The notes: a model not told the origin generated them from the sequence alone. A stretch of 64,000 bases of DNA from Planktothrix pseudagardhii (GCF_904830925.1 NZ_LR882967.1:3362106-3426105); one strand, 5' to 3'; numbered from the stretch's first letter, positions 4,505-33,837 are shown. Made by a program: numbers and translations.

Positions 4505-4716
4505 AGCTGTGTCTGCATCACGCAGTAAATGTTCCGGTTCATTATAGTCTGAATGACCGATTACAATCCCAATACTGGCATTAATAAAAACTTCATGTCG
4601 TTCTAAATGAAAAGGTTTAGAAAAAGAGTCTAAAATCTGATCGGCTAATTCAATAACATGAGGAAAGTCGGGAATTTCTGTTAATAAAATTGCAAATTCA
4701 TCTCCTCCTAGACGGG

Positions 4717-5094: not shown

Positions 5095-5314
5095 TCACTA
5101 CAGGTTGGAATAAAGACCCACTCTGATTGTTTATTGGTGTACTGGGTAAAGTTTCTCTGGGGATGCTGGTATTGGGTAAAGTGGCTTACCTCATTAAACC
5201 GAACTGTGTCAATTCTATAAAATACAAGCCATAATTATAACATTTTGTTAGAGCTTTACTCAATTCCTGTTGGTTTTATGCCCTGAATATTTGTGTCAAG
5301 GTTTTTGAAAAAAA

Positions 5315-6925
5315 TTAAAGCGGAAGGGGCTCTTGTTGCTGTTCTTTTTTCAGATCTTGTTGTTTAATTTTAGGCAATTTGAATAGGACACCCACTAAAA
5401 ACCAATAATAAACAGCCACTGGATCGGTATCGAGAGGATACCAATAGGGATTATAGCTAATTAAAGCAATAAAAATCCAAAATGTAATTCCATAACCCCA
5501 TAAACTATGATCGATTAATTGATGATAGGATTTAAACCCTAAAATCGTAATTGTTGTCACCAGGAATAAAAAAGCGGCAACTCCAAAGGGGCCAATTTCA
5601 TAGTACAACTTAGGATAATAAGCTTCAATTAATCGTGTTTTTCCTAATCCTCTGGCTGCGGTTGTTGCTTGTCCTAAACCATTGCCTAAAAAACCGCGAT
5701 GGGCTTTCAAACTCAAATTCGTTTGTTTCGTTAAAAACACTGCCGGGGGATCAGCATTCCAACGTCCAATCAAGCTATCAACTCGTTCAGACATGACCTC
5801 TGGTGCGAAAATTGATGTGGCGAGAATTAAAGCCACCATCCCTACAACAATCACTAATAAGCGCTTAACCCGTGAGATATGACTGGTCGCCACTAGCAAC
5901 AAAATCACAATGGATGGAACCGCTAACAAAGCTGTTCTTTGACCAGAAATAATGGCATTGAGCATCACTAACGATAACGCCGCTAAACCCGTTAAACGCC
6001 ACTTCAATTTTGGGTCACTAAAGGCCGTTGCAAAACCAAAAAATGTGCTGGATACTAAAAACCAAGACCAATGCCAAGGCGCGACAAAGGTTCCGGGTAA
6101 ACGAATAAAGTTTTCCGATGGGTAATATCCTAATGCGCCTCCCACAAAACACTTACGCTGCACATTTGCCCTCAATAATAAATGTTCTGGTAAACCGCTA
6201 TTATCCGAACAATACCCCGTTATTATTAATATAAATTGAATGAATCCTAAAATGCAACAAATGACGATTAAAATAATTTGCAAACGAGAAAAAAATTGCA
6301 GTTCTTTGCGAGTCCGAATCAAATAATAGGCTCCGGTAATCAGAGGAATATATCCCAGTAAAACTTTTAAGCCGAAGAGTCCCACGGCAAACGGTTGGTT
6401 ATCGACCGTGGCGTGTCGTTGTTGAACACCATTAACAGCAAAGAGGGTAACAATAGCAATCGTGAACAAAATTAACAGGGGAATTCTAAGTTGAGGCGGA
6501 ACAATAAGCGGTAACTTTTTTTTTCTTAATTCAACAATTAAACCGATTAAAGCCGGGATATAAAACCCATCTTTTGCTAAATGGAAAATAAAATGATCGT
6601 TGCCAACCCAATAAGAAATTGTCCCCGCAAAGGGTAAATAAATTAAAAAAGCCCATAACCCTTGACGGGGATATCGATAACATAAAACCAGAATCATTAG
6701 AGCAATACTGCTAAAGATTGTGGTATTTACAGAAACCCCATTCGCAAATAGCAAGAGTCCCATCAATAAAGCGACACTAGCGACTATTGCTAAGAACCGC
6801 CAGAAATTGGGTTTCTTAGGGGAAGGCGGTTCAAGATCAATCACCGGGTATTCAAAACCGTTAAGATCAGGGTCGGGATGACTCTGGTGTTCTGATTGTT
6901 GGGGTTGACCAGGAAAGTTGGACAT
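5315..6925 (-). CDS. Polytopic integral membrane protein (>=12 predicted TM helices; possibly O-antigen polymerase/ligase-like)
   Basis: Long ORF with many hydrophobic segments (LAIVASVALLMGLLLF, IALMILVLCY, IIVICCILGFIQFILII...). Start chosen at MSNFPGQ (ATG at 6923-6925) rather than the upstream in-frame Met at 7048. The functional guess is weak. Confidence 0.45.
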   Translation of the reverse strand: MSNFPGQPQQSEHQSHPDPDLNGFEYPVIDLEPPSPKKPNFWRFLAIVASVALLMGLLLFANGVSVNTTIFSSIALMILVLCYRYPRQGLWAFLIYLPFAGTISYWVGNDHFIFHLAKDGFYIPALIGLIVELRKKKLPLIVPPQLRIPLLILFTIAIVTLFAVNGVQQRHATVDNQPFAVGLFGLKVLLGYIPLITGAYYLIRTRKELQFFSRLQIILIVICCILGFIQFILIITGYCSDNSGLPEHLLLRANVQRKCFVGGALGYYPSENFIRLPGTFVAPWHWSWFLVSSTFFGFATAFSDPKLKWRLTGLAALSLVMLNAIISGQRTALLAVPSIVILLLVATSHISRVKRLLVIVVGMVALILATSIFAPEVMSERVDSLIGRWNADPPAVFLTKQTNLSLKAHRGFLGNGLGQATTAARGLGKTRLIEAYYPKLYYEIGPFGVAAFLFLVTTITILGFKSYHQLIDHSLWGYGITFWIFIALISYNPYWYPLDTDPVAVYYWFLVGVLFKLPKIKQQDLKKEQQQEPLPL

Positions 6926-6935
6926 TAGAATATGA

Positions 6936-7163
6936 TTATTGCCAACGTTGAGGAATATTGACTTCCCAAAGTTCCTGTACACGCTGTTGTTGAGGAGAGG
7001 GAAGTCGTTCAAAGGCTTGCATAATTTCCCAATGAGTATAATTAACAATCAAAGCTGTCAATTCACCCAAAGTTTCAGCTTGTAATAAAGCCGATTGCAA
7101 CAATTGATGCTCGATGAGGTCGAAGTTAAGGGTTTGTTCTGAAGATAAAAGTTCGATTGCCAT
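6936..7163 (-). CDS. Small hypothetical protein (75 aa)
   Basis: ORF directly upstream of, and co-oriented with, the membrane-protein gene. No recognisable motif. Confidence 0.3.
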   Translation of the reverse strand: MAIELLSSEQTLNFDLIEHQLLQSALLQAETLGELTALIVNYTHWEIMQAFERLPSPQQQRVQELWEVNIPQRWQ

Positions 7164-7219
7164 CGTGTTCCAAAAAACAGAGCGTTACCAACTGTTGAGA
7201 AAATAAATAATCTGAATTT

Positions 7220-7606
7220 CTACAGGCTGGAAAGGATTATTCCCACTATAGCACCCCCAAGAAGAGTAAATGTTACTAGGGAACTGATGGCAAACCCCAG
7301 CATCCGTTTCTCAGCCACTTGGTAATATCCCCAAGCATATAAAATTCGTCCGATGACCCAAACTGCACCTAAACCAGCAGCCCAAATTGGACTCACCCAT
7401 TCCGAAAACAACCACAGCGTCGGGAGAAACAAAACCAATTGTTCGAGGGTGTTCTGTTGGACGCGCACCACTCGCTCAAAATTCTCGTCTCCGTTCATTT
7501 GAGGGGGCATAATTTTGTACTTGATTCGGGCACGCCCCACATTAATCGTCACAGCTAAATATAGCAGCAACGCACAAGCGGTTACTAAACTAGGCCACAT
7601 TGACAT
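7220..7606 (-). CDS. MAPEG family membrane protein (microsomal glutathione S-transferase-like)
   Basis: 128 aa with four hydrophobic segments. Contains the MAPEG signature E-R-x2-R-x3-N-x2-E-x4-F (NFERVVRVQQNTLEQLVLF). Confidence 0.7.
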   Translation of the reverse strand: MSMWPSLVTACALLLYLAVTINVGRARIKYKIMPPQMNGDENFERVVRVQQNTLEQLVLFLPTLWLFSEWVSPIWAAGLGAVWVIGRILYAWGYYQVAEKRMLGFAISSLVTFTLLGGAIVGIILSSL

Positions 7607-7928
7607 AACCAGAAAGTCCCTACAGTAAATCTATCTTTTCCTATCCTACCCTCAACAACCCAGGGTCAACCGCGCAGCACCCCAGAGCCAACCGAGGTCA
7701 ACTTGTGATCTCAATCACTTTTAAACTTCCCAGTCAGTCACAGGAAATCTTCCTTCCCTGTCACGCCAAAGCTTTTGAACTATCACGGCTTCATCCAAGC
7801 GCTATCACTGTCATCTTTAACCAAACATTAGATAGTTAACTCAGTCCGACGTAATGGATTAGGTCAAAATGCTGAACTTAAATTTCTCAGGTTGCACGCC
7901 CGTGATGAATCAAAATCAATTAAAGCCC

Positions 7929-9049
7929 TATATAGCACTTCCAAATGAGTTATAATAAATGTAAGGTTAGCAATAATCCCCCAAAGCTGGCAACGGAAAA
8001 TGAATATAATCGACGAAATAGACGATTTTATCAATCAGACAAAAGATCCTAGAGAAATTAAAAGAGCGATCGCTGTCAAACTCAAATTACAAGGTAAAGC
8101 CTACCGGGAAATTCAAGACTTATTACAAGTTTCTCAAGGATTTATTAGCCAATGGAAAAATCGGGTGCTTGTGGAAGGAGTAGACAGTTTAAAACTTCAA
8201 TATAAAGGAAGGAAAGGTTATCTAAGCCCTGAAGACAAACAGAAAATTATTGAAGAATTAAGGGAAAGAGATTGGTTAAGATTGTCTGATTTACAAGTTT
8301 TGTTAGAAAGGGAGTATGGAGTCGTGTTTCAATCCCATCAAAGTTATTATAGCTTGCTGGAAGAGGCTCGCATCAGTTGGAAAAAAAGCCAAAAAAAGAA
8401 TCCGGCTAAAAATGAGCAGTTAGTCCAAGAGAAAAAGGAAGAAATTGAAAAAAAGTTAGCGAGTTGGAAAGAGGAAATAGGGGCGGGAAAGCTGACAGTG
8501 TTTATGATTGATGAATGTCATCTTCTTTGGGGAGATATTTTAGGGTATGTTTGGGGAAGGACGGATCGAAGAATAGAAATTCCCATCAAAAATCAAAAAG
8601 AAAGGCAAACTTATTATGGAGCTTTAGATTACCAAACGAAAGAATTTATTATCAAAGGTTATGCGGCGGGCAATACAGAAAATACCGTAGACTTTCTCCA
8701 GTATTTACAACAGCAAAATCCGGGGAAAAGGTTGGCTATAGTCTGGGACAATGCCACTTATCATTGTTCTCAAAACTTTCGAGATTACTTAACTCAAGTT
8801 AATCAAAATTTATCGGAAGAAGAATGGCGGATTACTTGTGTAAATTTTGCTCCTAATGCGCCGGAGCAAAATCCGGTTGAAGATATTTGGTTACAAACCA
8901 AAAATTTCGTGAGAAAATTCTATCATTTATGCCCATCTTTTAAAGTAGTTAAGTGGCTATTTGAGTTTTTTGCTCAGGGGCAAATTTTTGATTTTCCCAA
9001 GCTTTTTATGTACGGGATTTTGCCACAACCTATTTAGGATTGCTATATA
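7929..9049 (+). mobile_element. IS630/Tc1-mariner family insertion sequence (~1.12 kb) with imperfect terminal inverted repeats and flanking TA
   Basis: Left end is TATATAGCACTTCCAAATGAGTT (from 7929). The reverse complement of the right end is TATATAGCAATCCTAAATAGGTT (ending 9049). About 17 of 23 positions match. The ends enclose a DDE transposase gene. Confidence 0.55.
8000..9037 (+). CDS. IS630 family transposase (HTH plus DDE_3 domain)
   Basis: N-terminal HTH-like region (EIKRAIAVKLKLQGKAYREIQDLLQVSQGFISQW). DDE region: VFMIDECHLLWGD...AIVWDNATYHCS...NFAPNAPEQNPVEDIW. Confidence 0.85.
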   Translation: MNIIDEIDDFINQTKDPREIKRAIAVKLKLQGKAYREIQDLLQVSQGFISQWKNRVLVEGVDSLKLQYKGRKGYLSPEDKQKIIEELRERDWLRLSDLQVLLEREYGVVFQSHQSYYSLLEEARISWKKSQKKNPAKNEQLVQEKKEEIEKKLASWKEEIGAGKLTVFMIDECHLLWGDILGYVWGRTDRRIEIPIKNQKERQTYYGALDYQTKEFIIKGYAAGNTENTVDFLQYLQQQNPGKRLAIVWDNATYHCSQNFRDYLTQVNQNLSEEEWRITCVNFAPNAPEQNPVEDIWLQTKNFVRKFYHLCPSFKVVKWLFEFFAQGQIFDFPKLFMYGILPQPI

Positions 9050-10008
9050 TGATTATTATTATAGAAGAAACCCATCCCTTAAATTTTAGATCATTTGTTA
9101 AATTATTGAACCAACTGCACTTAAGTTTTGTGATTGCGCCTCATCCAGATAGTGCGATTTTTCATGCAGAATATACGAATCCAGACGTTATTCTGATTCC
9201 CTTTGACCCCAACCAAGCTAATCCCCAAGAAACCTATCACAAGTTGAAGCAAGCTAAAATCACTGAAAATGTTCCGGTGTTATGGATGAATAGTTATTCT
9301 GACTTGAATGTACAATATCTAACGTCCTTTACCTCAACCCTTGAGGCGAATAATCCCTTGACAGCCTCGAATTTTTCCTTTGGTGATTTACCGATTGATA
9401 CAACGATTAAAAGTCTCAAAAATCAAATTGAAATGCAGCAAAAATTATTAATTAAATTACAAGCTGAAAACCAACACCTGAAACGTCTAGCTTCTTTAGA
9501 TGATTTAACTCAAGTAGCCAATCGTCGTCAATTTTATAGCTACTTACAAGAACAATGGCAATCCTGCCAAGAAGACTATCTTTCCATGATCTTATGTGAT
9601 GTGGATTTTTTCAAACTTTATAATGATACTTACGGTCATTTAGCCGGGGATTATTGTTTACAACAAATAGCCCAGGCTATTGAAACGGCAGTTCGTAGAG
9701 TTAGGGAACCAGAACCCTATTTAGTCGCCCGTTATGGGGGAGAAGAATTTGCTGTAATTTTACCCTATTTAGATCAAGAAAATGCGCGTAAAGTTGCTGA
9801 AGAAATTCAACTGCAAATTCGATATTTAAAAATTCCCCATCGTTCCTCTCCCATCCGTTCTTATATTACCAGTAGTTTAGGGGTTGCCTGTTCTATTCCC
9901 GGAGAAGAATCCCATTTACAAGAGTTGATTAGTGCGGCAGACAAAGCCATGTATCACGCCAAGTCAGAAGGACGAGATCAAGTTAAAGTCGCTTCAGATA
10001 TTCTCTAA
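9049..10008 (+). CDS. GGDEF diguanylate cyclase with degenerate N-terminal receiver-like domain
   Basis: ATG at 9049 (the ORF track begins at an in-frame TTG at 9040). Receiver-like N-terminus (IIIEETHP...PDVILIPFDP), then a coiled coil, then GGDEF motifs NRRQFYSY and RYGGEEF. Confidence 0.75.
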   Translation: MIIIIEETHPLNFRSFVKLLNQLHLSFVIAPHPDSAIFHAEYTNPDVILIPFDPNQANPQETYHKLKQAKITENVPVLWMNSYSDLNVQYLTSFTSTLEANNPLTASNFSFGDLPIDTTIKSLKNQIEMQQKLLIKLQAENQHLKRLASLDDLTQVANRRQFYSYLQEQWQSCQEDYLSMILCDVDFFKLYNDTYGHLAGDYCLQQIAQAIETAVRRVREPEPYLVARYGGEEFAVILPYLDQENARKVAEEIQLQIRYLKIPHRSSPIRSYITSSLGVACSIPGEESHLQELISAADKAMYHAKSEGRDQVKVASDIL

Positions 10009-10383
10009 ATATTCAAAAATAGAATAAAAATATACCTTTAAATTGGTTAAAAATATATTTTTAATCGATTCTATTTTTGAATCTCATTTAGAGAATAATT
10101 TTTATTAAATCACCTAAAATTTTTATCGCTTGCTCCAGTTTCTATAACCTAGGTAAAATATAGAATCAAAGGGCTGCATTCAATAGACTCAAAAAAGCTA
10201 CGATAGGGCCTATCGGAAGTTGGTCGCCAGACCTAAACACTTTTGGGGAGATACAACCTCTATCTGGGTTGGTTGTCATACCTGCTTAGATAAGTTGAGT
10301 CCGTGAACCAAGAATCTCCGCCCTTTTAGGGTGAGGAAGTGTCAACCTACCTATGATATTATTGTGCAAAACTTTAAATCGCG

Positions 10384-10992
10384 ATGAATCGTTGTATTGT
10401 GATGTCTTCTGGGTTGAAAAAAGCACTTCTGACTCACCTATCCCGTAATCAGCGTTGGTTGTCAGTGGTGGCAACGGTGAGTTTATTTCCGTTGTTTGTC
10501 CCCGTTGCTCCGGCATCTGCTTTTCCGTCTTTTGTGCAAATTCGGCGACAAGACTATAGAAACTGTACTCAACAGTTAACTAACGCTGGTCTGTCCGTTG
10601 AATTGGCAACTCAAGGCTGTTCAATGGCAGCTAGGCCGAGAAATATGGGGTATTGTGTCACACAAATGCAAAAAAATGTTGCCGCCCTACCTGTAGAACA
10701 AATTTTATCAGGTTGTTTGCAAGTTCGGCGTCCCGATGAATTAGCCAATTGTGTGGTCAATATTAGCAGCAATACTAACTCATCCGACCCCTTGAATATT
10801 CTTGATAGTTGTCGTCGGAGTGTATTACCTGAAAAGTTGTCTTTTTGTGTTGTGGGCTTGATTCAAGCTAATACAAATTTAGGCGTTGATCAAGTTTTAA
10901 AAACTTGTTTAACTCCCCCTGAAAATGTTGTGGAGTTGCAAAAAGACAATTCCATTCAGTTAAAATTAGATACACCCTCTCAAAAACAATAA
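10384..10992 (+). CDS. Secreted hypothetical protein with four internal Cys-pair repeats
   Basis: N-terminal hydrophobic stretch (WLSVVATVSLFPLFVPVAPASA) looks like a signal peptide. A ~37-aa unit recurs four times: ATQGCSMAARPRNMGYCV, ILSGCLQVRRPDELANCV, ILDSCRRSVLPEKLSFCV, VLKTCLTPPE. Confidence 0.5.
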   Translation: MNRCIVMSSGLKKALLTHLSRNQRWLSVVATVSLFPLFVPVAPASAFPSFVQIRRQDYRNCTQQLTNAGLSVELATQGCSMAARPRNMGYCVTQMQKNVAALPVEQILSGCLQVRRPDELANCVVNISSNTNSSDPLNILDSCRRSVLPEKLSFCVVGLIQANTNLGVDQVLKTCLTPPENVVELQKDNSIQLKLDTPSQKQ

Positions 10993-11042
10993 ATTAACTG
11001 AATTTCAAGTGTCTTTATTTTGGGTTTCTTCGGGTGAGAACG

Positions 11043-11061
11043 GGGCGGGAAAAACCCGCCC
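11043..11061. terminator. GC-rich stem-loop (GGGCGGG-AAAAA-CCCGCCC) between convergent genes
   Basis: Perfect 7-bp stem with a 5-nt loop, lying between the 3' ends of the 10384-10992 (+) and 11072-17539 (-) genes. The flanking U-tracts are poor. Confidence 0.4.
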
Positions 11062-11071
11062 AAAAGTCTAA

Positions 11072-14000
11072 CTAAAACAGAATAATATCATCGGAATTCA
11101 AGGATGTTACGCCTGTAATTCCCTCTAATTTAGCTAGAATTCGAGAATCATTTCCTGATGTGTTATTCCCATTGCCATCATAGATTAAGTAAGTATCCTT
11201 ACCATTATCAAAGGCAAATAGACTAGGGTTATTTGTAGGCAAGACATCGGTTGAAAGATTCGTTTGTACACTGAGGAGAATATTAGCTGCATCTGCAATT
11301 AAACTGGTTGATACGCTAATTTGATCACCCCCCACTTGACCCAAACCTTCAAAATTGTTAATGGAATCATAGAAACCACTGCCAATTTGAGTCGTAATTG
11401 CAGTTCCCACCGCATTAAAAGCAGTACCGCCTCCATCCAGTGCATCGCTATAAATAAACAGGTCTGTTTCCCCTAAGTTACCAATGAGGCTATCTCGTCC
11501 TAAACCCCCAAACAGGTTATCTTGTCCCGCGCCTCCATCGAGAAGGTCGTTTCCACTTCCCCCCGATAAACTATCATTACCATCATTTCCCCGCAGGCTG
11601 TCATTCCCCTCTAAACCGACGAGGGTATCATTTCCCCCCAAACCATTAAGGTTATCGCCAAAATTTCCTCCCGTTACTAAGTTCGGAGTTTCATCGGCTA
11701 AGGGTAATAATTCAATATTAATCTGACCTGTCGCCGTCCCCCCTTGACCATCACTAATCGTGTAGTTGAAACTATCCACCCCGGTATTACTTCCCAAACG
11801 AGTATACTGAACTGATGATCCCGATTGAGTCACTAACCCTTGGGCGGTGGGAGGATTATCCACAGAAGTCAACGTCAGGACATCTCCATCGGGGTCACTA
11901 TCGTTATCTAACGGAGAAATCGGGAATTGGATGCTATTATTGGTAAAAATTGGGCCATCAGTAACAGCAACAGGTAAATCATTAACCGCCGTAATATTAA
12001 TCGTAACCGTTTGACTGACCGCAGGATTTTCACCGTCACTCACGGTATATAAAAATACCCCGGCTGAACCATTAACATTAGCTTTTGGTACAAATTCTAA
12101 CTGACTAATTTCAGCACTCGTTAAGGTTTGACCAATAATAATAGAGTTAGTTTGACCCGTAATACGGACGATTCCTTTAGTGCTATCAGGAATACTATTA
12201 ACAGTAATAATTAACGGGTCATTATTGGGATCAACTGGGGATGAAATTCCCAAATTCTGAGTTATATCTTCAGTAATATTAACGGTCGTATTCCCTTGAA
12301 CTACTGGAGGAAGATTTAAGCCAGCAATTCCAGCAAAGTCATTAACATTAAGGGTTGTCACACCATTAACGTTGTCTAATTTTGCCAAAATTCGAGAATC
12401 ATTACCCGTTGTATTATCACCATTACCATCATAAATGAGGTAAGTGCTACTGCCATCATCAAAAGCAAATAGACCCGGATTTGTACCCGGAATCACATCT
12501 GCGGTAATATTGGTTTGTACCGTTGTGGCAATATTGGCAAAGGATTGAATCACCGTTGTGGCAAAATTAATCTGATCTCCGACCGCAGCCCCTAAGCCTT
12601 CAAAATCGGTGATAGTATCATATAAAGCACTTCCAATTTGAGCTTTAATCTCTGTATTAGAACTTGCATTAAAACCCGACCCACCGCCATCATTAGCAGT
12701 TTCATAACGAAATTGGTCGCTTCCCTCATTTCCAGTCATCGTATCCGGGGTTAAACCGCCATTCAGGGTATCCTCTCCAATTCCTCCCTGTAACAGATCT
12801 GTTCCGCTTCCCCCTGATAAACTATCATTACCATCATTTCCCCGCAGGGTGTCATTCCCCCCCAAACCGCTTAGGGTGTCATTTCCCCCCAAACCATTGA
12901 GGTTATCGCTAAAATTTCCTCCCGTTACTAAGTTCGGAGTTTCATCGGCTAAGGGTAACAATTCAATATTAATCTGACCTGTCGCCGTCCCCCCTTGACC
13001 ATCACTAATCGTGTAGTTGAAACTATCCACCCCGGTATTACTTCCCAAACGAGTATACTGAACTGATGATCCCGATTGAGTCACTAACCCTTGGGCGGTG
13101 GGAGGATTATCCACAGAAGTTAACGTTAGAGCATCTCCATCGGGGTCAGTGTCATTGGCTAAGGGAGAAATCGGGAATTGGATGCTATTGTTAGTAAAAA
13201 TTGGGCCATCGGTAACAGCAACAGGAGGCTGATTTAAAGCAATCACCGTAATGGTACTTGCCGCTGTATTACTATTGCTCGTTCCATCATTCACCTGAAC
13301 CTGTACTAGGCGGGTGGTGGTATTGGGAGGATTAGCTGTATTGTTATAAACAACTTGTCCAATGGCGGTTTGATAAGCCGCTAGTGAGGCATTCCCCGTT
13401 AAGGTTAAAATTCCGGTGGTGCTGTTATAACTACTGGCGGTAATCCCCGAAGGTAACGAACCATTAGCTGATAAACTTTCCCCACCGCCATTGAGTGGAT
13501 TTGTTACAGTAATTGTGGCGGACTGGATGGTGGTATTGTCTGCATCCGTAATTACAATACTACTCCCACTCGCGATCGCAACAGCAGGTTGTCCTTGTTG
13601 AAAGGCTACTTGGGTATTATTTCCCGCTTGGCTACCATTTAAGTCTAGGGTTGGGGGTTGATTGGGATTAACAGTAATGTTAACCGTCGCGCTACTGGTT
13701 CCACCCTGACCATCACTAATGGTATACAAGAAACTAGCCGGCCCTGTATAGTTATTGACTGGGGTAAACAGAACATTTCCATTACTGAGGGTAACCGTCC
13801 CATTTGTGGGATTACTAACTTGTGTAATGGTTAACGGATCATTATTCGGATCGGTATCATTTGCTAAGAGAGTGGAAGAGGATATTGTTAAGAGTTGATT
13901 TTGCGTTCCCACCACACTATCATTCACCGCATTCGGTGGCTGATTCGGCTGATTAATATTAATATTAACCGTCGCGCTACTGGTTCCGCCCTGACCATCA

Positions 14001-17000
14001 CTAATGGTATACAAGAAACTAGCCGGCCCTGTATAGTTATTGACTGGGGTAAACAGAACATTTCCATTACTGAGGGTAACAGTTCCATTTGTGGGATTAC
14101 TAACTTGAGTAATCGTTAACGGATCATTATTCGGATCGGTATCATTTGCTAAGAGAGTGGAAGAGGATATTGTTAAGAGTTGATTTTGCGTCCCCACCAC
14201 ACTATCATTCACCGCATTCGGTGGCTGATTCGGCTGATTAATATTAATATTAACCGTCGCGCTACTGGTTCCGCCCTGACCATCACTAATGGTATACAAG
14301 AAACTAGCCGGCCCTGTATAGTTATTGACTGGGGTAAACAGAACATTTCCATTACTGAGGGTAACAGTTCCATTTGTGGGATTACTAACTTGAGTAATCG
14401 TTAACGGATCATTATTCGGATCGGTATCATTTGCTAAGAGAGTGGAAGAGGATATTGTTAAGAGTTGATTTTGCGTCCCCACCACACTATCATTCACCGC
14501 ATTCGGTGGCTGATTCGGCTGATTAATATTAATCGTACTAGAAGCTGTTTGGGGGCCACCACTACCTGTATTTCCGTTATCCGTTGTCACAATTTGGAGA
14601 GTTGCCGAGGTATTCAAGGATGCAGGAGGTGCGAACGTTAAACCATTAAGAGCCGTATTAATATTTTCCAGACGACCTACTAAGGTTACTGTTGTTGTTC
14701 CATCGCCAGAAATTTCCACATTAGCCGGTGTTGCACCCAAGGTTAAAGTTCCCGTACTAGCTGTTAAGGTAACTTGAATCGGGTTTCCATCAGCATCCGG
14801 GTCACTAATCAAAATTTGATTATTATTAGCTTGACTAAATACAATCGGTTGACTACCATTTGTTAATTGTGTTCCTGGAACCGTATTAACGGGAGGATTA
14901 TTAACCGCATCAATAGTAACTGTGCTAATTGCAATATTACTATCATTTTCATGATCCGTAACGACTACATCAATGATTCGATTTTCAGGATCAGGATTTT
15001 GGGAAGTATTACTATAAACAACTTGAGACAGTGCAATTTCATAGCTAGAAATGGGTGCTGTTCCGGTTAGGAGAATAATTCCTGTTGTCGGATCATAAGC
15101 TCCTGCTGTAATCCCTGAAGGTAAGGCTCCTTGTATTGACAAACCTTCTACGTCACCATTGGGACTATTAATTAAAGTAATCGTTGCTGAAGTCAAATCT
15201 GAATCATCTGCATCAAGAATACTCACACTTCCAGTAATTGCGACCGGAGTTGTCCCTTCCACAAAAACAGTGCTGTAATTATTGCCCGGTTGGGAACTAT
15301 TAAGATCTAAAATTGGAGGCTCATTAATAGATATAACTTCAACGGTAATAGTAGCCGTTCCCGTTGCTCCATTATCATCTCGGATTTGATAATCAAATGT
15401 ATCTAAACCAGAAAAATTTTTATCAGGAGTATAAGTAATCATTCTACTATCCCGATTTAAAACTGCTGTCCCATTAGACGGTTGAGTAACTTCTGTCACC
15501 GTCAGCAGTCCAACCCCTGTGTCATTACTGGTGATTGTATTAGAGGGAATCTCCAATAAACTATTTTGTAAACCCGATACCGTATCATTTTCAGCCTGCA
15601 AAACGGCTGGAGTTGGGGGTTCAACCGGAGGAGGTGTGGGTTGAGAGGGAGTTGGTATGGGTGGAGTGGTTGGGGTCGTGGTCGGTGGAGTGGTTGGGGT
15701 TGGGGTCGGTGGGGTTGTTGGGGTTGGGGTCGGTGGGGTTGTTGGGGTTGGGGTCGGTGGGGTTGTTGGGGTTGGGGTCGGTGAGGTTGTTGGGGTTGGG
15801 GTCGGTGGGGTTGTTGGGGTTGGGGTCGGTGAGGTTGTTGGGGTTGGGGTCGGTGGGGTTGTTGGGGTTGGGGTTGGGGGAGTTGTGGGAGGAAGAGGGA
15901 CAGTGGGGTCAAGAACAAAGTTAGATTCGCTTAAGGTAGTCGCATTAACCCCTTGTAAAACCGCTAAAAATTCACCCGTATTTTTATCTTTGATAATTGT
16001 ATTACTGGCATTGGAGGCTTGACCTTGGGAAATTTCGAGATCTTGGAATGTTAATCCTCCCGATAACCCAAGCTGATCAGTTGTGGTAAAATCTGTAATA
16101 ATATCTGCTAATTCAATACTGGTTCCGCCTGTAGTTCCTGTAATAAAGCTGCCCCCATTGGGAGCTTGAGTAATAACATAACCCAAAACAAAAATATCAT
16201 CTCCCGCACCTCCAGTCAGGGTGTCTACTCCGGCTCCCCCTGCTAATAAATCATTCCCCCCATCACCGGAGAGGAAATCTCGACCTTTACCGCCATTGAG
16301 AATATCTTCCCCCGCACCTCCATATAAACTATCCGCTCCATTATCTCCATTGAGAACATCATCTCCGGCATTTCCAAACAGTTGATCGTTATCATCACCG
16401 CCAGAGACAGTATCATTTCCTAAATCTCCGTAGAGGATATCCGCCCCTTGACCTCCGACTAAACTATCGTCATCTCCGCCACCAAAGAGTTGATCATCTC
16501 CCGCACCGCCACTCAAGAAATCCTGACCAGAATTTCCTGATAAAATATCGTCTCCATCTCCTCCGTTAACGCTATCATTACCCACTTCACCCGATAGCGT
16601 ATCATTACCTTTATCCCCATAGAGGAGGTCATCTTCGCCTCCCCCTCGGATACTATCATTGCCTTGGCCACCATATAAACTATCTGCCTCGGTTCCGCCA
16701 TTCAAGGTATCATTATCTCGATCACCGAAAGCCAGATCACTCCCGGCATCACCGAAGATCAAATCATCCCCTTGACCTCCACGCAAACAGTCATCATCAG
16801 CGCCTCCGACAATGGCATCATTTCCTTCATTACCATTAATTTGATCTTGTCCTGCATCTCCTTGTAGAAGGTCATTTCCTCCTAAACCAAAGATACTGTC
16901 ATTTCCGTCTAAGCCAGAAATCGTATCATTTTGATTACTTCCCAGAATCGTATCATCACCTTCTGTACCTGTGCCCGCACCTTGAATCCGAATGGGTTGG

Positions 17001-17539
17001 GACTCGCTGGGGCTAGGACTAGGGGTGGCTGTGGGACTGGGTGTGGCTGTGGGACTGGGTGTGGCTGTGGGACTGGGTGTGGCTATGGGACTGGGTGTGG
17101 CTGTAGGGCTAGGAGTTGCAGTTGGACTGGGAGTTGCTGTAGGGCTAGGGGTTGCAGGGGTATATCCATCGGGAACAAAAATTGTACTTCCGGCTGGCCC
17201 TGCTTGAATCTCTCCTGTTGTTTGACCCTCTAAAGTTTGATATTGACCATCTGCTGTTTTGGCTAAATAAACAGGTGTATTCGTTTCAATTGATATCGCT
17301 TCTAAAATCGGTTCATCCGGTACAAAAAGCACTCCCCCAGCAGCCCCAGGTAAAGTTGTTCCGATGCCACTAGAAAGGGGGACTAAATTTTGAATATTTC
17401 CAGGGAATGTTTCAAATTTACCCGAAAATTCTGTGGTCGGAAAAATTAAGATTCCATTTCCTGTATTGTACAAACCATTACTCGGAGAAATTCTTAAGGC
17501 TAAAGTAGCAGGAGTTGTATTGATAGCAGAACTTGTCAT
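11072..17539 (-). CDS. Giant secreted RTX/cadherin-like repeat protein (2155 aa)
   Basis: Many GGxGxDxxx nonapeptides (GGAGDDQLFGGGDDDSLVGGQGADIL...). Pro-Thr linkers ([15 protein letters not shown]...; PSPTATPSPTAT...). Tandem ~95-aa Ig/cadherin-like modules (three near-identical copies of NQPPNAVNDSVVGTQNQLLTISSSTLLANDTDPNNDPLTITQV...). No N-terminal Sec signal. Confidence 0.85.
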   Translation of the reverse strand: MTSSAINTTPATLALRISPSNGLYNTGNGILIFPTTEFSGKFETFPGNIQNLVPLSSGIGTTLPGAAGGVLFVPDEPILEAISIETNTPVYLAKTADGQYQTLEGQTTGEIQAGPAGSTIFVPDGYTPATPSPTATPSPTATPSPTATPSPIATPSPTATPSPTATPSPTATPSPSPSESQPIRIQGAGTGTEGDDTILGSNQNDTISGLDGNDSIFGLGGNDLLQGDAGQDQINGNEGNDAIVGGADDDCLRGGQGDDLIFGDAGSDLAFGDRDNDTLNGGTEADSLYGGQGNDSIRGGGEDDLLYGDKGNDTLSGEVGNDSVNGGDGDDILSGNSGQDFLSGGAGDDQLFGGGDDDSLVGGQGADILYGDLGNDTVSGGDDNDQLFGNAGDDVLNGDNGADSLYGGAGEDILNGGKGRDFLSGDGGNDLLAGGAGVDTLTGGAGDDIFVLGYVITQAPNGGSFITGTTGGTSIELADIITDFTTTDQLGLSGGLTFQDLEISQGQASNASNTIIKDKNTGEFLAVLQGVNATTLSESNFVLDPTVPLPPTTPPTPTPTTPPTPTPTTSPTPTPTTPPTPTPTTSPTPTPTTPPTPTPTTPPTPTPTTPPTPTPTTPPTTTPTTPPIPTPSQPTPPPVEPPTPAVLQAENDTVSGLQNSLLEIPSNTITSNDTGVGLLTVTEVTQPSNGTAVLNRDSRMITYTPDKNFSGLDTFDYQIRDDNGATGTATITVEVISINEPPILDLNSSQPGNNYSTVFVEGTTPVAITGSVSILDADDSDLTSATITLINSPNGDVEGLSIQGALPSGITAGAYDPTTGIILLTGTAPISSYEIALSQVVYSNTSQNPDPENRIIDVVVTDHENDSNIAISTVTIDAVNNPPVNTVPGTQLTNGSQPIVFSQANNNQILISDPDADGNPIQVTLTASTGTLTLGATPANVEISGDGTTTVTLVGRLENINTALNGLTFAPPASLNTSATLQIVTTDNGNTGSGGPQTASSTININQPNQPPNAVNDSVVGTQNQLLTISSSTLLANDTDPNNDPLTITQVSNPTNGTVTLSNGNVLFTPVNNYTGPASFLYTISDGQGGTSSATVNININQPNQPPNAVNDSVVGTQNQLLTISSSTLLANDTDPNNDPLTITQVSNPTNGTVTLSNGNVLFTPVNNYTGPASFLYTISDGQGGTSSATVNININQPNQPPNAVNDSVVGTQNQLLTISSSTLLANDTDPNNDPLTITQVSNPTNGTVTLSNGNVLFTPVNNYTGPASFLYTISDGQGGTSSATVNITVNPNQPPTLDLNGSQAGNNTQVAFQQGQPAVAIASGSSIVITDADNTTIQSATITVTNPLNGGGESLSANGSLPSGITASSYNSTTGILTLTGNASLAAYQTAIGQVVYNNTANPPNTTTRLVQVQVNDGTSNSNTAASTITVIALNQPPVAVTDGPIFTNNSIQFPISPLANDTDPDGDALTLTSVDNPPTAQGLVTQSGSSVQYTRLGSNTGVDSFNYTISDGQGGTATGQINIELLPLADETPNLVTGGNFSDNLNGLGGNDTLSGLGGNDTLRGNDGNDSLSGGSGTDLLQGGIGEDTLNGGLTPDTMTGNEGSDQFRYETANDGGGSGFNASSNTEIKAQIGSALYDTITDFEGLGAAVGDQINFATTVIQSFANIATTVQTNITADVIPGTNPGLFAFDDGSSTYLIYDGNGDNTTGNDSRILAKLDNVNGVTTLNVNDFAGIAGLNLPPVVQGNTTVNITEDITQNLGISSPVDPNNDPLIITVNSIPDSTKGIVRITGQTNSIIIGQTLTSAEISQLEFVPKANVNGSAGVFLYTVSDGENPAVSQTVTINITAVNDLPVAVTDGPIFTNNSIQFPISPLDNDSDPDGDVLTLTSVDNPPTAQGLVTQSGSSVQYTRLGSNTGVDSFNYTISDGQGGTATGQINIELLPLADETPNLVTGGNFGDNLNGLGGNDTLVGLEGNDSLRGNDGNDSLSGGSGNDLLDGGAGQDNLFGGLGRDSLIGNLGETDLFIYSDALDGGGTAFNAVGTAITTQIGSGFYDSINNFEGLGQVGGDQISVSTSLIADAANILLSVQTNLSTDVLPTNNPSLFAFDNGKDTYLIYDGNGNNTSGNDSRILAKLEGITGVTSLNSDDIILF
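11560..13260. repeat. Dispersed ~0.45-kb near-identical duplication inside the same gene (11560-12000 vs 12820-13260)
   Basis: Both copies encode LNQPPVAVTDGPIFTNNSIQFPISPL(A/D)NDTDPDGD(A/V)LTLTSVDNPPTAQGLVTQSGSSVQYTRLGSNTGVDSFNYTISDGQGGTATGQINIELLPLADETPNLVTGGNF followed by RTX repeats. Confidence 0.8.
13681..14535. repeat. Three tandem 285-bp repeats inside the giant RTX gene (copies 2 and 3 identical, copy 1 near-identical)
   Basis: Unit starts at 13681, 13966 and 14251, each beginning TAACCGTCGCGCTACTGG. The identical antisense ORFs 13895-14119 and 14180-14404 in the ORF track are a by-product of the repeat. Confidence 0.9.
15640..15900. repeat. 24-bp tandem repeats encoding the Pro-Thr linker (PTPTPTTP)n
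   Basis: Repeating GGTTGGGGTCGGTGGGGTTGTTGG units. Similar coding repeats occur at 16990-17150, 19630-19810 and 21040-21140. Confidence 0.8.
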
Positions 17540-17545
17540 AAGATT

Positions 17546-17585
17546 AAGTAATTAGTAATCAGTAATTAGTAATCAGTAATTAGTC
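17546..17585. repeat. Heptamer tandem repeat (AGTAATT/AGTAATC)n in the intergenic region between the two RTX genes
   Basis: agtaattagtaatcagtaattagtaatcagtaattagt. STRR-like. Confidence 0.85.
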
Positions 17586-17684
17586 GTAGGGACAGGTTCA
17601 TCCAGATGAGTGATTATTCACAAAGATCTAAGAGAACCTGCCCTTACCAGCTATTTGTACCAATAGTTAATCGTCAACTGTCAA

Positions 17685-20600
17685 CTAGATAATGACAAAA
17701 TCACTAGGCGTAATTAAGGTACTAATATTGCTGGTTGCTGGATCAATAGACGGTAAAATTCCTAAATCAAAAGCCGGGAGACTATCATCACTTAAATTTG
17801 GATCATAGCCCATCACATAAGCACCCGGGAAAGCGGCATAAGACAAGTTATTGCGATAGACAAAGAAAGCGGCAGTATCACTGGAACCTTTTTGATTTTT
17901 CAAAGCTGCATTGACCGCTTGAACATTATCAAAGGTATCTTGGAAAATGATCACTTGTTTATTACTAATATCATCCCCTGTAGAACCCAGATTAGAAACG
18001 ATTATTCCTTGTAGAGGAACAACGGTTCCTTCTGCGGTGGTAAAACCGGGGAAACCAAGAGAACTAAACAGGAATCGATCATCGCCATTAACATTAAATT
18101 CTGTGATCACATCAACGCCTTCTGCGGGAGCTAAATAGTAGTAAGAATTATTACCCACATTCCCAATTAAACTATCAGCCCCGGAGCCTCCAGCTAAGGT
18201 ATCATCATCTTCACCACCAAAGATTGTGTCATTGCCACCATCCCCAAAGATGACGTCATTACCAATTCCCCCAAACAAACTATCTAAGCCATCTCCAGCA
18301 TAGATAGTATCTTCTCCAAAATCACCCAAAATCGAGTCATTTCCAGCTTCACCAAAGATGGAATCATCTCCCGTTCCTGCTGAAACGCTATCTGCCCCTG
18401 AACCACTACTAATAGTATCGTCTCCATCTCCACCGGTGATAGAATCATTGCCATCACCAGCAAAAATGGTGTCGTTATTCTCTCCGGCATCAATAGTATC
18501 GTTATCTGCACCCCCGAGAACTAAGTCTCGACCCACTCCGGCAAAAATTAGGTCTTGTCCTTCTTCTCCATACAGAGAATCATCTCCAGCATTTCCAGTG
18601 AGGGAATCATTTCCACTGCCCCCTAAAAGGGTATCGTTCCCAATACCACTAATGAGAATATCATCATTATTCCCACCGGAGAGTAAATTACTATCATCTC
18701 CAGCAACTAAGGTGTCATTCCCATCTTCTCCTAACAAGGTATTGCGACCTGCACCTCCATCCAGAGAGTCATTTCCTTGACCTCCAAATAGAGAATCATT
18801 CCCAATTTGACCCAGGAGAATATCGTCTTCTTCATCTCCTTGCACAACATCATTTCCTTCTCCCCCATCGAGAGAATCTCGTCCGCTTCCTCCTTGTAAA
18901 ACATCTCGGTTGCCTAGTCCTAAGAGGGTATCATTTCCAGCAAATCCTCTGATATTTTCACTTAAACCACTACCTGTAATGAAATCATCGCCGTCCGTAC
19001 CGGAAATAATATCATCAACAATGGTGATACTAAAGGCATTCTGGGTTGTCGTCCCAATGTTATCAGTGAGAACGAAAAGAAAGTCGTCTTCTCCTGATAG
19101 ATTTCGAGAATTATATTCAATGGAACCGTTGTTAATATTTTCTTGAGTAAACCTCTCTCCCACATTAATAACTTGAGGTGTAGACCCGATGGCTTGTAAA
19201 TTCCCTAAGCTGGGTTCTTGAGTAATTTGGTAAAAAATTTCATTCGGGGGATTATCAGGGTCTACTGCCAAAAGATTTCCAGCAGTAAGATTTTCCACAT
19301 CATTAAGCGCAATAATAATCCCATTATTCACTAATAATGTCGGGGGAACATTAACAGTGATTAAGACTTGAGCCGTGGACGTTAAGCCATAACTGTTTTG
19401 AATGGTATAGGGAAAGGTTGATGGCCCTGTAAAACCTGGAATAGGGGTGAACGTAATATTTCCTCCAGAGGTAATCGCTACACTACCATTGGCAACTGTC
19501 CCGGTACTGACTAACGTGAGTTGACTTCCTTGGGGGTCGGTGTCATTTACTAACACGTTAAAGGTGACAGAACCATCGGGAGTTCGTTTTACGGTGTCAT
19601 TTTGAGCAATGGGGGGTTGTAACGGGGGAGTGGTTGGCGTCGGTGGAGTCGTTGGTGTGGGAGTTGTTGGTGTGGGTGGTGTTGTTGGGGTGGGAGATGT
19701 TGTTGGTGTGGGTGGTGTTGTTGGAGTCGGTGGTGTTGTTGGAGTCGGTGGTGTTGTTGGTGTGGGTGGTGTTGTTGGAGTCGGTGGTGTTGTTGGAGTC
19801 GGTGGTGTTGTTGGAGATGGAGTTGGAATCGGAATAATCGTACCGGAAATGGGAGTAAAACTATCCGCGTTGATGGTGGTGCTATTTACCCCAATGAGAA
19901 CGGCAATATAATCTCCTGCACTGCCGTTTCTAATAATCGTATTCCCGGCATTTTCAGCACTTTGGGTAATCGATAAGTCACTAAATTGTAAACCCCCAGC
20001 TAAACCAATGCGATCGCCCAATTCAAAATCATTCACAATTTGAGCGTCTTCTAAATTCCCTCCTCCACTTTCGGGAGTCATCACGAAGGTATCATTTCCT
20101 GAGCCACCTGTGAGGGTATCAATGCCTTTACCACCCCAGAGAAAATCATCTCCAGTTTCACCCGAAATTTGATCATCTCCTTCGCCTCCGAAGGCAGTAT
20201 CGTTACCAACGCCACCAAATATTGTATCGTTGCCTTGATTTCCTTGGAGACTATCAGCACCGTCATTTCCAAACAACAAGTCTGCTTCGTCTCCGCCTGT
20301 TACCGTATCATTTCCAGCATCCCCCCAGAGGACATCACTACCTTTATCTCCATAGACAAGATCATTGCCTTCTCCACCTCTAACACTATCGCCTCCTTGA
20401 CCTCCATAAAGGCTATCATTTCCCAAATTCCCAATGACGGTATCGTTTCCGAGTTGTCCTAATCCAGTATCATCTCCTTCACTACCATCGAGAAAATCAT
20501 TATCCTTGCCGCCATTGAGTTCGTCGTTACCTTCTCCTCCGGTGAGGCTATCATTTCCTTCATTACCGTAGAGGGTATCATTGCCTTCATCCCCTCGAAG

Positions 20601-21320
20601 TTCATCATTTCCCGCTAAACCAAAGATGGTATCGTCTCCACCTAAACCGTTGATCACATCATTTCCAGAGGAACCTGTAATATAATCGCTGGTTTCTGTT
20701 CCTTTACCAATTCCTTCAATAATAATCGGGCGATTCCCCGCTAACACTTGAATAAAAACTTGGGCTGGGGCGGTTCCTTGTTCAATCGTATAACTAAAAC
20801 TATCGACTCCAAAAAAATTCGGGTCAGGAGTATAAGTAAAAATTCCAGCCCCATTAAACACTAAAGTTCCATTAGAAGTTGAGCTAAATTGAGCAATACT
20901 GATACTGGTTCCACTTCCTCCGGGAATAGAATCATTTTCCAGAACATTAAAAAAAGTTGCTTGTTCAAAGTTCGTCTGAAAAAAGTCATTATTAGCAATC
21001 GGAGCCGGATTTGTCCCGCCACTTCCAGAAGGTGTAGGTGTAGGGGGTGTGGTGGGGGATGTGGTGGGGGGTGTGGTGGGGGATGTTGTAGGAGGTGTTG
21101 TGGGGGTGGGAGATGTTGTGGGGGTGGGAGATGTTGTTGGGGTGGGTGCTGGGGGATTTTGAGGGACGAAAATTACATCACCATTGGCACCAGGTAACGT
21201 TTCTCCAACTAACCCGGTGAAGCTTTGAAAGATACCCGGAAGTTCTGTCGGAAAAATTAACAGGGTTTCCTCTGTATTAATAACTCTGGCCCTAACAGTA
21301 TTAATTGCTGCACTTGTCAT
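17685..21320 (-). CDS. Large secreted RTX-repeat protein (1211 aa) with Pro-Thr linkers
   Basis: Dense GGxGxDxxx repeats ([24 protein letters not shown]...). Two PT-rich linkers. The N-terminus MTSAAINT... resembles that of the upstream giant gene. Confidence 0.85.
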
Positions 21321-33398: not shown

Positions 33399-33422
33399 TC
33401 TTTTGAACCCCTATTTTAGTCC

Positions 33423-33836: not shown

Positions 33837-33837
33837 A

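What the first reader, a model, noticed from the sequence alone, without database searches (positions are those of the whole stretch)
13681..14535. Perfect 285-bp triplication inside a 6.5-kb RTX/cadherin gene
Three head-to-tail 285-bp units encode identical 95-aa Ig/cadherin-like modules, and copies 2 and 3 are base-identical. A second ~450-bp segment is duplicated 1.25 kb apart (11560-12000 / 12820-13260). Such perfect repeats point to recent expansion and likely strain-to-strain copy-number variation. They are also a classic site for assembly collapse or expansion, so the true copy number is uncertain.
Basis: seen in the sequence. Interest (0 to 1): 0.5.

Follow-up and report, generated by a model that had tools for sequence, protein, structure and literature searches.

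The report
Variable domain repeat in cyanobacterial surface-protein gene
A giant calcium-binding surface-protein gene of a Planktothrix cyanobacterium carries three in-frame copies of a 285-bp unit, each encoding one Ig/cadherin-like domain; a 99.6%-identical strain has four copies, so this is a real but ordinary example of repeat-number variation in a large secreted protein.

Summary
The repeat is real but not perfect. Window 13667-14521 (minus strand) holds three in-frame 285-bp units. Two are base-identical (type A). The third, 3'-most in the gene (type C), differs at 9 nt and 2 aa.

Each unit encodes one "tandem-95"/Big_9/Cadherin_5 beta-sandwich domain. The host is a 2155-aa RTX protein (11072-17539, minus strand) in a Planktothrix tepida-like genome.

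- The PacBio chromosome of P. tepida PCC 9214 (about 99.6% identical nearby) has A-A-A-C where the window has A-A-C. Both reading frames are intact.
- A draft scaffold identical to PCC 9214 downstream has an "N" gap exactly at the array.
- Assemblies of related species show one or two units at this site.

The "second duplication" is the conserved 5' part of a roughly 930-bp duplicated module (tandem-95 domain, RTX block, C-terminal cap) at offset 1251 nt. Its near-perfect 242-nt core (11628-11869 / 12879-13120) is a derived gene-conversion tract. PCC 9214 and two outgroups keep 35-39 differences there; the window has 2.

Differences from PCC 9214 across the locus concentrate in these internal repeats.

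Verdict: a known kind of phenomenon, namely recombination-driven domain-number variation and concerted evolution in a giant repetitive surface protein. The window's own copy number cannot be verified without reads. Interest is low to moderate.

The parts
11072..17539 (-). Host gene: 2155-aa RTX / tandem-95 (cadherin-like) protein. Order of parts: N-terminal domain, PT/SP linker, RTX block 1 with cap, PT linker, seven Ig/cadherin-like domains, and two RTX-plus-cap modules.
   Evidence: ORF list and translation; Pfam and NCBIfam; self-comparison
13667..14521 (-). The 3 x 285-bp in-frame array (aa 1007-1291). TRF extent is 13666-14533. The perfect-repeat tract is 13908-14533.
14237..14521 (-). 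Unit 1, type A (aa 1007-1101).
   Evidence: Identical to unit 2 and to all three A units of PCC 9214
13952..14236 (-). Unit 2, type A (aa 1102-1196).
13667..13951 (-). Unit 3, type C (aa 1197-1291). It differs from A at 9 nt: 7 synonymous plus N93T and I94V.
   Evidence: dN 0.009, dS 0.11
12320..13252 (-). Module M1 (aa 1430-1740): tandem-95 domain, RTX block 2 (12704-12922) and an internal copy of the C-terminal cap.
11075..12001 (-). Module M2 (aa 1847-2155): tandem-95 domain, RTX block 3 (11450-11671) and the true C-terminus (...SLNSDDIILF).
11628..11869 (-). Gene-conversion tract in M2. It is 242 nt with 3 mismatches to its partner in M1 (161 nt exact).
   Evidence: The tract is derived: PCC 9214, PCC 9631 and L006 keep 35-39 differences per 205 nt here, the window keeps 2
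12879..13120 (-). Partner (probable donor) of the conversion tract, in M1.
16184..16969 (-). RTX nonapeptide block 1 (aa 191-452).
   Evidence: PF00353, 14 stretches
15602..15901 (-). Pro/Thr-rich linker (aa 547-646), encoded by a 24-bp x 9.5 tandem repeat at 15660-15886. A second PT/SP linker lies at 16997-17161.
   Evidence: 4 clustered differences from PCC 9214 at 15725-15731
15335..15616 (-). First tandem-95 domain (aa 642-735). It is 38-41% identical to the array unit.
17685..21320 (-). Adjacent paralogous RTX/cadherin-like gene (1211 aa, 40-43% identity over shared parts).

Best explanation
The feature is an in-frame tandem array of a 285-bp unit. Each unit encodes one roughly 95-residue Ig/cadherin-like beta-sandwich ('tandem-95'/Big_9 domain). 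The array sits in the stalk of a giant Ca2+-binding RTX protein of a Planktothrix tepida-like cyanobacterium.

Shown:
- The unit is one complete domain. Its boundaries fall in the conserved inter-domain linker (...N-I/V-N | (Q)PNQPP...).
- The array consists of identical A units followed by an older, slightly diverged C unit.
- The number of A units differs between two genomes that are about 99.6% identical (2 versus 3), without breaking the reading frame.
- A second pair of paralogous modules in the same gene carries a derived conversion tract.

Inferred:
- An ancestral single unit, as still assembled in related species, duplicated by recombination between the similar linker-coding sequences at its ends. 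This gave the A and C types (dS about 0.11).
- More recently the A copy was amplified. Copy number now drifts up and down by unequal homologous recombination or replication slippage between the 285-626-bp perfect repeats. The same recombination activity homogenises other internal paralogous segments.
- Each gain or loss lengthens or shortens the rod-like extracellular stalk by one domain.
- The protein is most likely exported by a type I secretion system through its C-terminal RTX/cap module. It probably acts as a surface adhesin or fibril. Neither point is shown.
For: Array anatomy.

Domain identity:
- Pfam and NCBIfam hits.
- Closest solved sequence is an 'RTX protein' chain, 36gk_A, E 1.4e-6.
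- AF2 model with pLDDT 97.7 and Foldseek hits to cadherin, titin and Ig-like tandem domains.

Copy-number difference: PCC 9214 PacBio chromosome has 4.0 copies and 2250 aa; the window has 3.0 copies and 2155 aa. A and C units are each 100% identical between genomes.

Genomes otherwise near-identical:
- No mismatch in 9046-11399 or 4750-7933.
- 4 mismatches in 14521-18438.
- 65 mismatches in 16.8 kb of 25799-45110.

Recombination activity in the same gene: about 100 differences cluster in 11400-13100, and the M2 tract has been overwritten by M1. This is polarised by PCC 9214, PCC 9631 and L006.

Lineage-specific expansion:
- One unit is assembled at this site in PCC 9631, CG2_30 and L007.
- Two units are assembled in L006, with 25 of 285 nt differing between them.
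- Window units differ from all of those at 60-82 of 285 nt, but from each other at only 0-9.

Tandem arrays with periods of 273-315 bp are common in related loci: 43 arrays in 141 loci.

RTX proteins with cadherin domains, and cyanobacterial RTX surface proteins, are described in PMC3034196.
Against: - No reads were available, so the window's count of three could be an assembly under- or over-count.
- The copy numbers of 1-2 in other species come mostly from short-read assemblies and MAGs. PCC 9631 was Illumina/Velvet/GapCloser. These may be collapsed, so they are lower bounds.
- No type I secretion genes (ABC transporter, HlyD-type, TolC) occur in the 64-kb window.
- No N-terminal retention module or signal was detected by Pfam.
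- Export and surface function rest on family knowledge only.
- Zero differences among A copies cannot separate recent duplication from continuing homogenisation.
Confidence: 0.8

Rival explanations
1. Assembly artefact in the window. The true array in the source strain has four or more units, or two, and the assembler mis-counted identical 285-bp units. In that case there is no real difference from PCC 9214.
For: - The perfect tract is 626 nt, longer than typical short reads.
- The draft scaffold LN889812 failed at exactly this place, with an N gap.
- The L008 contig ends in the first unit.
- The gene's product was not found by exact look-up in public gene calls, so no independent assembly of the window's strain is available.
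Against: - The window is a contiguous 64 kb that runs through an IS630-family element and several other internal repeats without gaps. That is typical of long-read assemblies.
- The ORF is intact and differs from PCC 9214 by exactly one unit.
- The window is a distinct genome. It has an IS insertion, two indels, about 0.4% SNPs and a different M2 tract. A real difference is therefore plausible.
Confidence: 0.2
2. Old array kept identical by concerted evolution. The A units are not recent duplicates but are continually homogenised by intragenic gene conversion. Copy number may be stable over long periods.
For: - Gene conversion is demonstrably active in this gene, as the M1-to-M2 tract shows.
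- Four clustered changes in the PT-linker repeat also look like a small conversion.
- A and C units are identical between strains.
Against: - Copy number does differ (2 versus 3 A units) between genomes about 99.6% identical.
- The C unit, directly adjacent, has escaped homogenisation at 9 sites.
- This rival is partly compatible with the main explanation, because the same recombination machinery is involved.
Confidence: 0.3
3. The differences in 11400-13100 between the window and PCC 9214, including the near-perfect 242-nt core, are not gene conversion. They could be polishing or consensus errors between paralogous modules, or an imported divergent allele acquired by homologous recombination from another strain.
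For: - 11 sites are unique to the window's M2, and 5 sites are shared by both window modules but by neither PCC 9214 module. Simple M1-to-M2 copying from a PCC 9214-like ancestor does not explain these.
- Flanks are 100% identical while this segment is about 6% different.
Against: - PCC 9214's version is supported by two sequences that are 100% identical here (L001 and L002).
- In the tract, the window's M2 matches its own M1 (2 differences) rather than any known M2 (38-56 differences). That is the signature of intragenic conversion, whatever else happened.
Confidence: 0.2

Closest known systems
Tandem-95 repeat proteins (NCBIfam NF012211; Pfam Big_9 PF17963 / Cadherin_5 PF17892 / Cadherin_4 PF17803)
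   Same: - Roughly 95-aa all-beta unit with the N-D-x-D-x-D-type acidic loop (ANDTDPNNDPL), arranged head-to-tail.
- HMM scores far above cut-offs.
- Arrays with periods of 273-315 bp are common in relatives.
- One relative, P0001, has 21 adjacent units at 95% identity or more.
   Different: Here only three of the seven units form a near-identical array, and two are 100% identical at the DNA level. Arrays in the fetched relatives are mostly 85-93% identical. That comparison is biased, because short-read assemblies cannot hold perfect repeats.
RTX proteins with cadherin-like domains (Vibrio cholerae FrhA, RtxL1/RtxL2) and RTX adhesins in general
   Same: - RTX nonapeptide blocks combined with several cadherin-like domains.
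- Two such genes sit in tandem, as reported for rtxL1/rtxL2 in PMC3034196.
- Export is presumed to be C-terminal and T1SS-dependent.
   Different: - Only about 30-40% local identity to any non-cyanobacterial relative.
- Three RTX-plus-cap modules, two of them internal.
- Pro/Thr-rich linkers.
- No N-terminal retention module detected.
- No T1SS genes nearby.
- No functional data.
Cyanobacterial RTX surface proteins (oscillin of Phormidium uncinatum, SwmA of Synechococcus WH8102, Sll1951 of Synechocystis)
   Same: Extracellular Ca2+-binding RTX proteins of cyanobacteria, forming S-layer or surface fibrils and linked to motility (PMC3034196). The host here is a filamentous Oscillatoriales-type cyanobacterium.
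   Different: As described, they are built from nonapeptide repeats without tandem-95 domains. Any role in gliding or adhesion is speculation.
Repeat-number-variable surface proteins of other bacteria (for example alpha C/Rib of group B streptococci, Aap/SasG, Bap, LapA-type giant adhesins). This comparison is from my own knowledge and was not tested here.
   Same: Identical domain-encoding DNA repeats in frame. Strains differ by whole units through recombination. Such genes are notorious for short-read assembly collapse.
   Different: The domain families, anchoring and organisms are unrelated. The array here is small (3-4 units).

Membership tests
Tandem-95 repeat protein (NF012211) | Match to the family HMM above the curated cut-off (90 bits), with several repeats | tested here: met
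   336.9 bits, 7 stretches
Tandem-95 repeat protein (NF012211) | Units of about 95 aa arranged head-to-tail | tested here: met
   Units at aa 1007-1101, 1102-1196 and 1197-1291 abut exactly. The other four units are separated by other domains.
Bacterial Ig / cadherin-like domain (Pfam Big_9, Cadherin_5) | HMM match above the gathering score, and a beta-sandwich fold | tested here: met
   Big_9 362 bits and Cadherin_5 311 bits. The AF2 model has pLDDT 97.7 and is all-beta. Foldseek probability is 1.00 to protocadherin-15, desmocollin-2, cadherin-23, titin and fucoidanase Ig-like domains.
RTX protein family | Gly/Asp-rich nonapeptide Ca2+-binding repeats (PF00353) | tested here: met
   230.6 bits, 14 stretches. 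The blocks are at aa 191-452, 1540-1612 and 1957-2030.
RTX protein family / T1SS substrate | Uncleaved C-terminal secretion signal recognised by a T1SS | not testable with these tools
   The C-terminus ...SLNSDDIILF resembles the acidic-plus-hydrophobic ends of T1SS substrates. That resemblance is from my own knowledge; no predictor was available.
RTX protein family / T1SS substrate | Cognate ABC transporter, membrane-fusion protein and TolC genes adjacent to the substrate gene | tested here: not met
   None of the 20 neighbouring proteins scanned with Pfam shows these domains. Adjacency is common but not obligatory.
LapA-type RTX adhesins | N-terminal retention module with a LapG-type cleavage site | tested here: inconclusive
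   No Pfam or NCBIfam family matches aa 1-129. No dedicated model or motif search was run.
Classical (eukaryotic-type) cadherin repeats | Match to Pfam Cadherin (PF00028) with the canonical inter-domain Ca2+ motifs | tested here: not met
   PF00028 is not among the hits. Only the bacterial cadherin-like families match, and structural similarity to cadherins has two-domain TM-scores of only 0.4-0.5.
Copy-number-variable (contingency-type) repeat locus | Different unit numbers in closely related strains, with the frame preserved | tested here: met
   3 versus 4 units, 2155 versus 2250 aa, both ORFs intact. Only two genomes were compared, and the window's count is not verified by reads.

The most novel reading that the evidence does not exclude
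The gene is a fast-evolving 'contingency' surface locus of a biphasic (benthic/planktic) cyanobacterium. Recombination among its internal repeats would be favoured by selection from phages, grazers or substrate attachment. That recombination includes gain and loss of whole domains, conversion between its two C-terminal secretion modules, and PT-linker changes. It would generate most of the difference between otherwise near-identical strains. Divergence here is about 6% across 11400-13100, against 0-0.4% in flanking DNA. Stalk length would be an adaptive, rapidly tunable trait.
Probability: 0.15. Interest if true: 0.5.

Novelty: new member of a known kind. Interest (0 to 1): 0.25.

Why it matters
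Practical value: the locus is a concrete warning for annotation and comparative genomics of Planktothrix. One draft scaffold breaks and splits the gene here, so gene length and apparent pseudogenes in short-read assemblies are unreliable at this site. The array could also serve as a simple PCR length marker to tell apart very close P. tepida / P. pseudagardhii-like strains.

Biological value: it shows that unit gain or loss and intragenic gene conversion dominate the divergence of a giant RTX/cadherin-like surface protein between near-identical cyanobacterial strains. Cell-surface diversification in bloom-forming and benthic cyanobacteria is little studied. The mechanism itself is well known from other bacteria, so this opens no new principle.

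Tried and rejected
- Exact look-ups failed. The window's 2155-aa product and the PCC 9214 2250-aa product are not in the protein or gene collections, so cluster-member lengths could not be used to survey copy number.
- The whole-protein homology search was swamped by generic RTX and tandem-95 proteins at 33% identity or less, or with short coverage. No orthologue was returned.
- A second search with the unique region upstream of the array returned only short or distant proteins (best 77% over 51% of the query).
- An exact-pattern scan of metagenome contigs with a 40-mer from the unit found nothing. The protein-guided metagenome scan found only distant relatives, 63% or less. No environmental copy-number data were obtained.
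- The genome-contig scan did not return the window's own species at about 99%. It returned other Planktothrix species and MAGs at 67-86%. Their copy numbers (1-2) are treated as lower bounds, because most are short-read assemblies.
- A BLASTP self-comparison of the whole protein reports only the identity hit. I replaced it with segment queries.
- A search for type I secretion genes in the window was negative.
- I considered and rejected the idea that the array is a mobile element, a CRISPR-like structure or a non-coding satellite. It is in frame, matches a protein-domain family unit for unit, and evolves with dN/dS of about 0.08.
- The literature search for 'tandem-95 repeat' found only passing annotation mentions and no functional study.
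Full report
**1. Observation**

Tandem Repeats Finder reports one strong array at 13666-14533: period 285, 3.0 copies, 98% matches, no indels, score 1673. The repeat finder gives three copies spaced 285/285. The array lies inside a single 6468-bp ORF on the minus strand, 11072-17539, 2155 aa.

Alignment of the copies and an in-frame comparison show two things:
- The two units that come first in the gene, 14237-14521 and 13952-14236, are base-identical. I call these type A.
- The third unit, 13667-13951 (type C), differs at 9 of 285 nt. Seven changes are synonymous; two alter the last residues (NININ becomes NITVN).

'Perfect triplication' and 'identical 95-aa modules' are therefore overstated. 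'Copies 2 and 3 are base-identical' (in plus-strand order) is correct. The perfect tract is 13908-14533.

**2. What the unit is**

- The protein matches Pfam Big_9 (E 2.5e-110, 7 stretches), Cadherin_5, Cadherin_4 and HemolysinCabind (E 8.7e-70, 14 stretches).
- It matches NCBIfam NF012211 'tandem-95 repeat' at 336.9 bits against a cut-off of 90.
- The closest solved sequence to one unit is a chain named 'RTX protein' (36gk_A, E 1.4e-6).
- An AlphaFold2 model of units 2-3 used an alignment of 29 unit pairs cut from the hits. It has mean pLDDT 97.7 and shows two beta-sandwiches.
- Foldseek matches that model to tandem Ig/cadherin-type domains: fucoidanase Ig-like domains, titin, protocadherin-15, desmocollin-2, cadherin-23 and SraP.

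Each 285-bp unit is one complete domain. Unit boundaries fall in the conserved linker ...N-I/V-N | (Q)PNQPP..., which also flanks the array on both sides.

**3. Architecture of the gene**

| aa range | Element |
|---|---|
| 1-129 | N-terminal region with no family match |
| 127-181 | PT/SP linker |
| 191-452 | RTX block 1, followed by a cap |
| 547-646 | PT linker (24-bp x 9.5 DNA repeat) |
| 642-735 | tandem-95 domain |
| ~736-1006 | two other cadherin-like domains |
| 1007-1291 | the A-A-C array |
| ~1292-1430 | a cadherin-like domain 47% identical to aa 761-900 |
| 1430-1740 | module M1: tandem-95 domain, RTX block 2, cap |
| 1742-1849 | Cadherin_3-like domain |
| 1847-2155 | module M2: tandem-95 domain, RTX block 3, true C-terminus |

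The adjacent gene 17685-21320 is a 1211-aa paralogue.

No type I secretion genes occur among the 20 neighbouring proteins scanned. CemA and phycobilisome genes nearby mark a cyanobacterium.

**4. Source and relatives**

- The neighbouring MAPEG protein is encoded identically in LR882970.1 (L001) and LN889812.1 (L002).
- LR882970 is the PacBio-assembled chromosome of Planktothrix tepida PCC 9214 (Entfellner et al. 2022, PMC9366434).
- L002 is 100% identical to L001 over 15,577 bp. From memory it is the Illumina/Velvet/GapCloser draft of the same strain (Pancrace et al. 2017, PMC5259702). I could not verify the accession link.

The window is a different but very close genome:
- 65 mismatches in 16.8 kb of 25799-45110.
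- No mismatch in 4750-7933 or 9046-11399.
- An IS630-family insertion with TA duplication at 7934-9045.
- Two indels relative to PCC 9214.

**5. Copy-number variation and assembly behaviour**

| Sequence | State at the array | Source |
|---|---|---|
| Window | A-A-C, 3.0 copies, 2155 aa | |
| PCC 9214 PacBio (L001) | A-A-A-C, 4.0 copies (3906-5058), 2250 aa (95 aa more) | |
| Draft scaffold (L002) | a single 'N' replaces the A units, only the unique C unit remains, and the gene is called as 954-aa and 946-aa fragments | |
| MAG contig L008 | contig ends inside the first unit | |

All A units are identical to one another and between the two genomes. The C units are also identical between genomes.

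In other Planktothrix-like genomes the same site holds:
- one unit in PCC 9631 (L004), CG2_30 (L005) and L007;
- two units in L006, differing at 25 of 285 nt.

Those units differ from the window's at 60-82 of 285 nt, whereas A and C differ at only 9. The expansion (or homogenisation) is therefore specific to the P. tepida lineage, and L006 expanded independently. Most of these are short-read assemblies, so their counts are lower bounds.

**6. Age and selection**

A versus C gives dN 0.009 and dS 0.11, a ratio of 0.08. Over the first 90 codons dN is 0. The A/C split therefore predates the strain split (about 0.4% divergence), and the domain is under purifying selection. The A copies are either very recent or continually homogenised.

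**7. The second duplication**

A four-way alignment of window M1 and M2 with PCC 9214 M1 and M2 covers module columns 141-345 (distances):
- The window's two modules differ at 2 sites.
- PCC 9214's two modules differ at 37 sites.

The site patterns are dominated by 'PCC 9214-M2 unique'. Outgroups polarise this: M1 and M2 differ at 39 sites in PCC 9631 and 35 in L006 over the same tract. The window's M2 tract (about 11628-11869) has therefore been overwritten by M1 (12879-13120).

Nearly all of the roughly 105 differences between the window and PCC 9214 in 9046-13950 fall between 11400 and 13100. Some sites are not explained by a single conversion: 11 are unique to the window's M2, and 5 are shared by both window modules only. 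Additional events, or import of a divergent allele, are likely. Consensus error in the window's assembly cannot be excluded without reads.

**8. Mechanism**

Shown:
- In-frame domain units with identical copies.
- A difference of exactly one unit between near-identical genomes.
- A derived conversion tract in the same gene.

Inferred:
- The first duplication arose by recombination between the similar linker-coding ends of the unit.
- Later gain and loss occurred by unequal homologous recombination or slippage between perfect repeats.
- Each unit adds one rigid beta-sandwich to an extended, Ca2+-stabilised stalk.
- The protein is exported through type I secretion and acts at the cell surface. 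This follows what is described for RTX proteins with cadherin domains and for cyanobacterial RTX surface proteins (PMC3034196).

The C-terminal ...DDIILF and the similar endings of the two internal caps suggest the gene was built by adding secretion-competent RTX cassettes. That is inference from sequence plus my own knowledge of T1SS substrates.

**9. How ordinary is it?**

- Among 141 related loci fetched, 43 arrays with periods of 255-330 bp were found, typically 85-93% identical.
- Among 199 adjacent unit pairs in the protein hits, 22 are 95% identical or more, almost all in one protein, P0001.
- Tandem arrays are thus the norm for this family. Perfectly identical units are rarer in the data, but short-read assemblies cannot represent them.
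- Repeat-number variation in large bacterial surface proteins is well known (my own knowledge).

**10. Verdict**

The phenomenon is a new example of a known kind. Interest is 0.25.

The main residual uncertainty is whether the window's count of three is correct for its strain.

Noticed in passing
window 7934-9045: A 1112-bp IS630-family element (DDE_3 transposase ORF 8000-9037), flanked by a TA target duplication. It is inserted immediately upstream of, or at the 5' end of, the GGDEF diguanylate-cyclase gene (9040-10008). It is absent from P. tepida PCC 9214, where that gene is 328 aa rather than 322 aa.
   Followed up: partly
window 11400-13100: Nearly all of the roughly 105 differences from PCC 9214 found in 9046-13950 fall in these 1.7 kb (the two duplicated C-terminal modules). 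The remaining part of 9046-13950 has a single difference, and the next 2.3 kb downstream (9046-11399) has none. Some alleles fit neither PCC 9214 module, which hints at extra conversion events or an imported allele.
   Followed up: yes
window 15725-15731: Four clustered substitutions relative to PCC 9214 inside the 24-bp Pro/Thr-linker repeat. They are the only differences in 3.9 kb upstream of the array and probably reflect a micro-conversion between linker repeats.
   Followed up: partly
window 4749/4750: A 400-bp segment present in PCC 9214 (L001 12858-13257, inside a Response_reg-GGDEF-EAL gene) is missing from the window. The window's copy of that signalling gene is probably truncated.
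   Followed up: no
window 42635/42636: A 1637-bp segment of PCC 9214 (L084 2487-4123, NB-ARC/TPR STAND-type genes) is absent from the window.
   Followed up: no
window 17685-21320 (-): An adjacent 1211-aa paralogue with RTX blocks, a PT linker, tandem-95-like domains and a Cadherin_3 domain. Together the two genes form a tandem pair of RTX/cadherin-like genes that is conserved in PCC 9631 and several MAGs.
   Followed up: partly
window 57244-62235 (-): A 1663-aa polyketide synthase with the domain order KS, AT, ACP, luciferase-like monooxygenase, thioesterase. The embedded monooxygenase domain is unusual.
   Followed up: no
window 62367-63614 (-): An IS200/IS605-type TnpB (OrfB_IS605 plus Cas12f1-like TNB domain) gene.
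   Followed up: no
L011 3976-5621 (Planktothrix sp. GU0601_MAG3 chromosome): A 208/415-bp tandem repeat (4-8 copies, 95-96% matches) upstream of the orthologous locus. In this MAG the orthologue itself is broken into several ORFs, possibly by frameshift errors.
   Followed up: no
P0001 (3225 aa, on a 7.85-Mb contig): The top-scoring relative carries about 23 tandem-95 domains, with 21 adjacent pairs at 95% identity or more. It is a much larger near-identical array than the one studied here. The organism was not identified.
   Followed up: no
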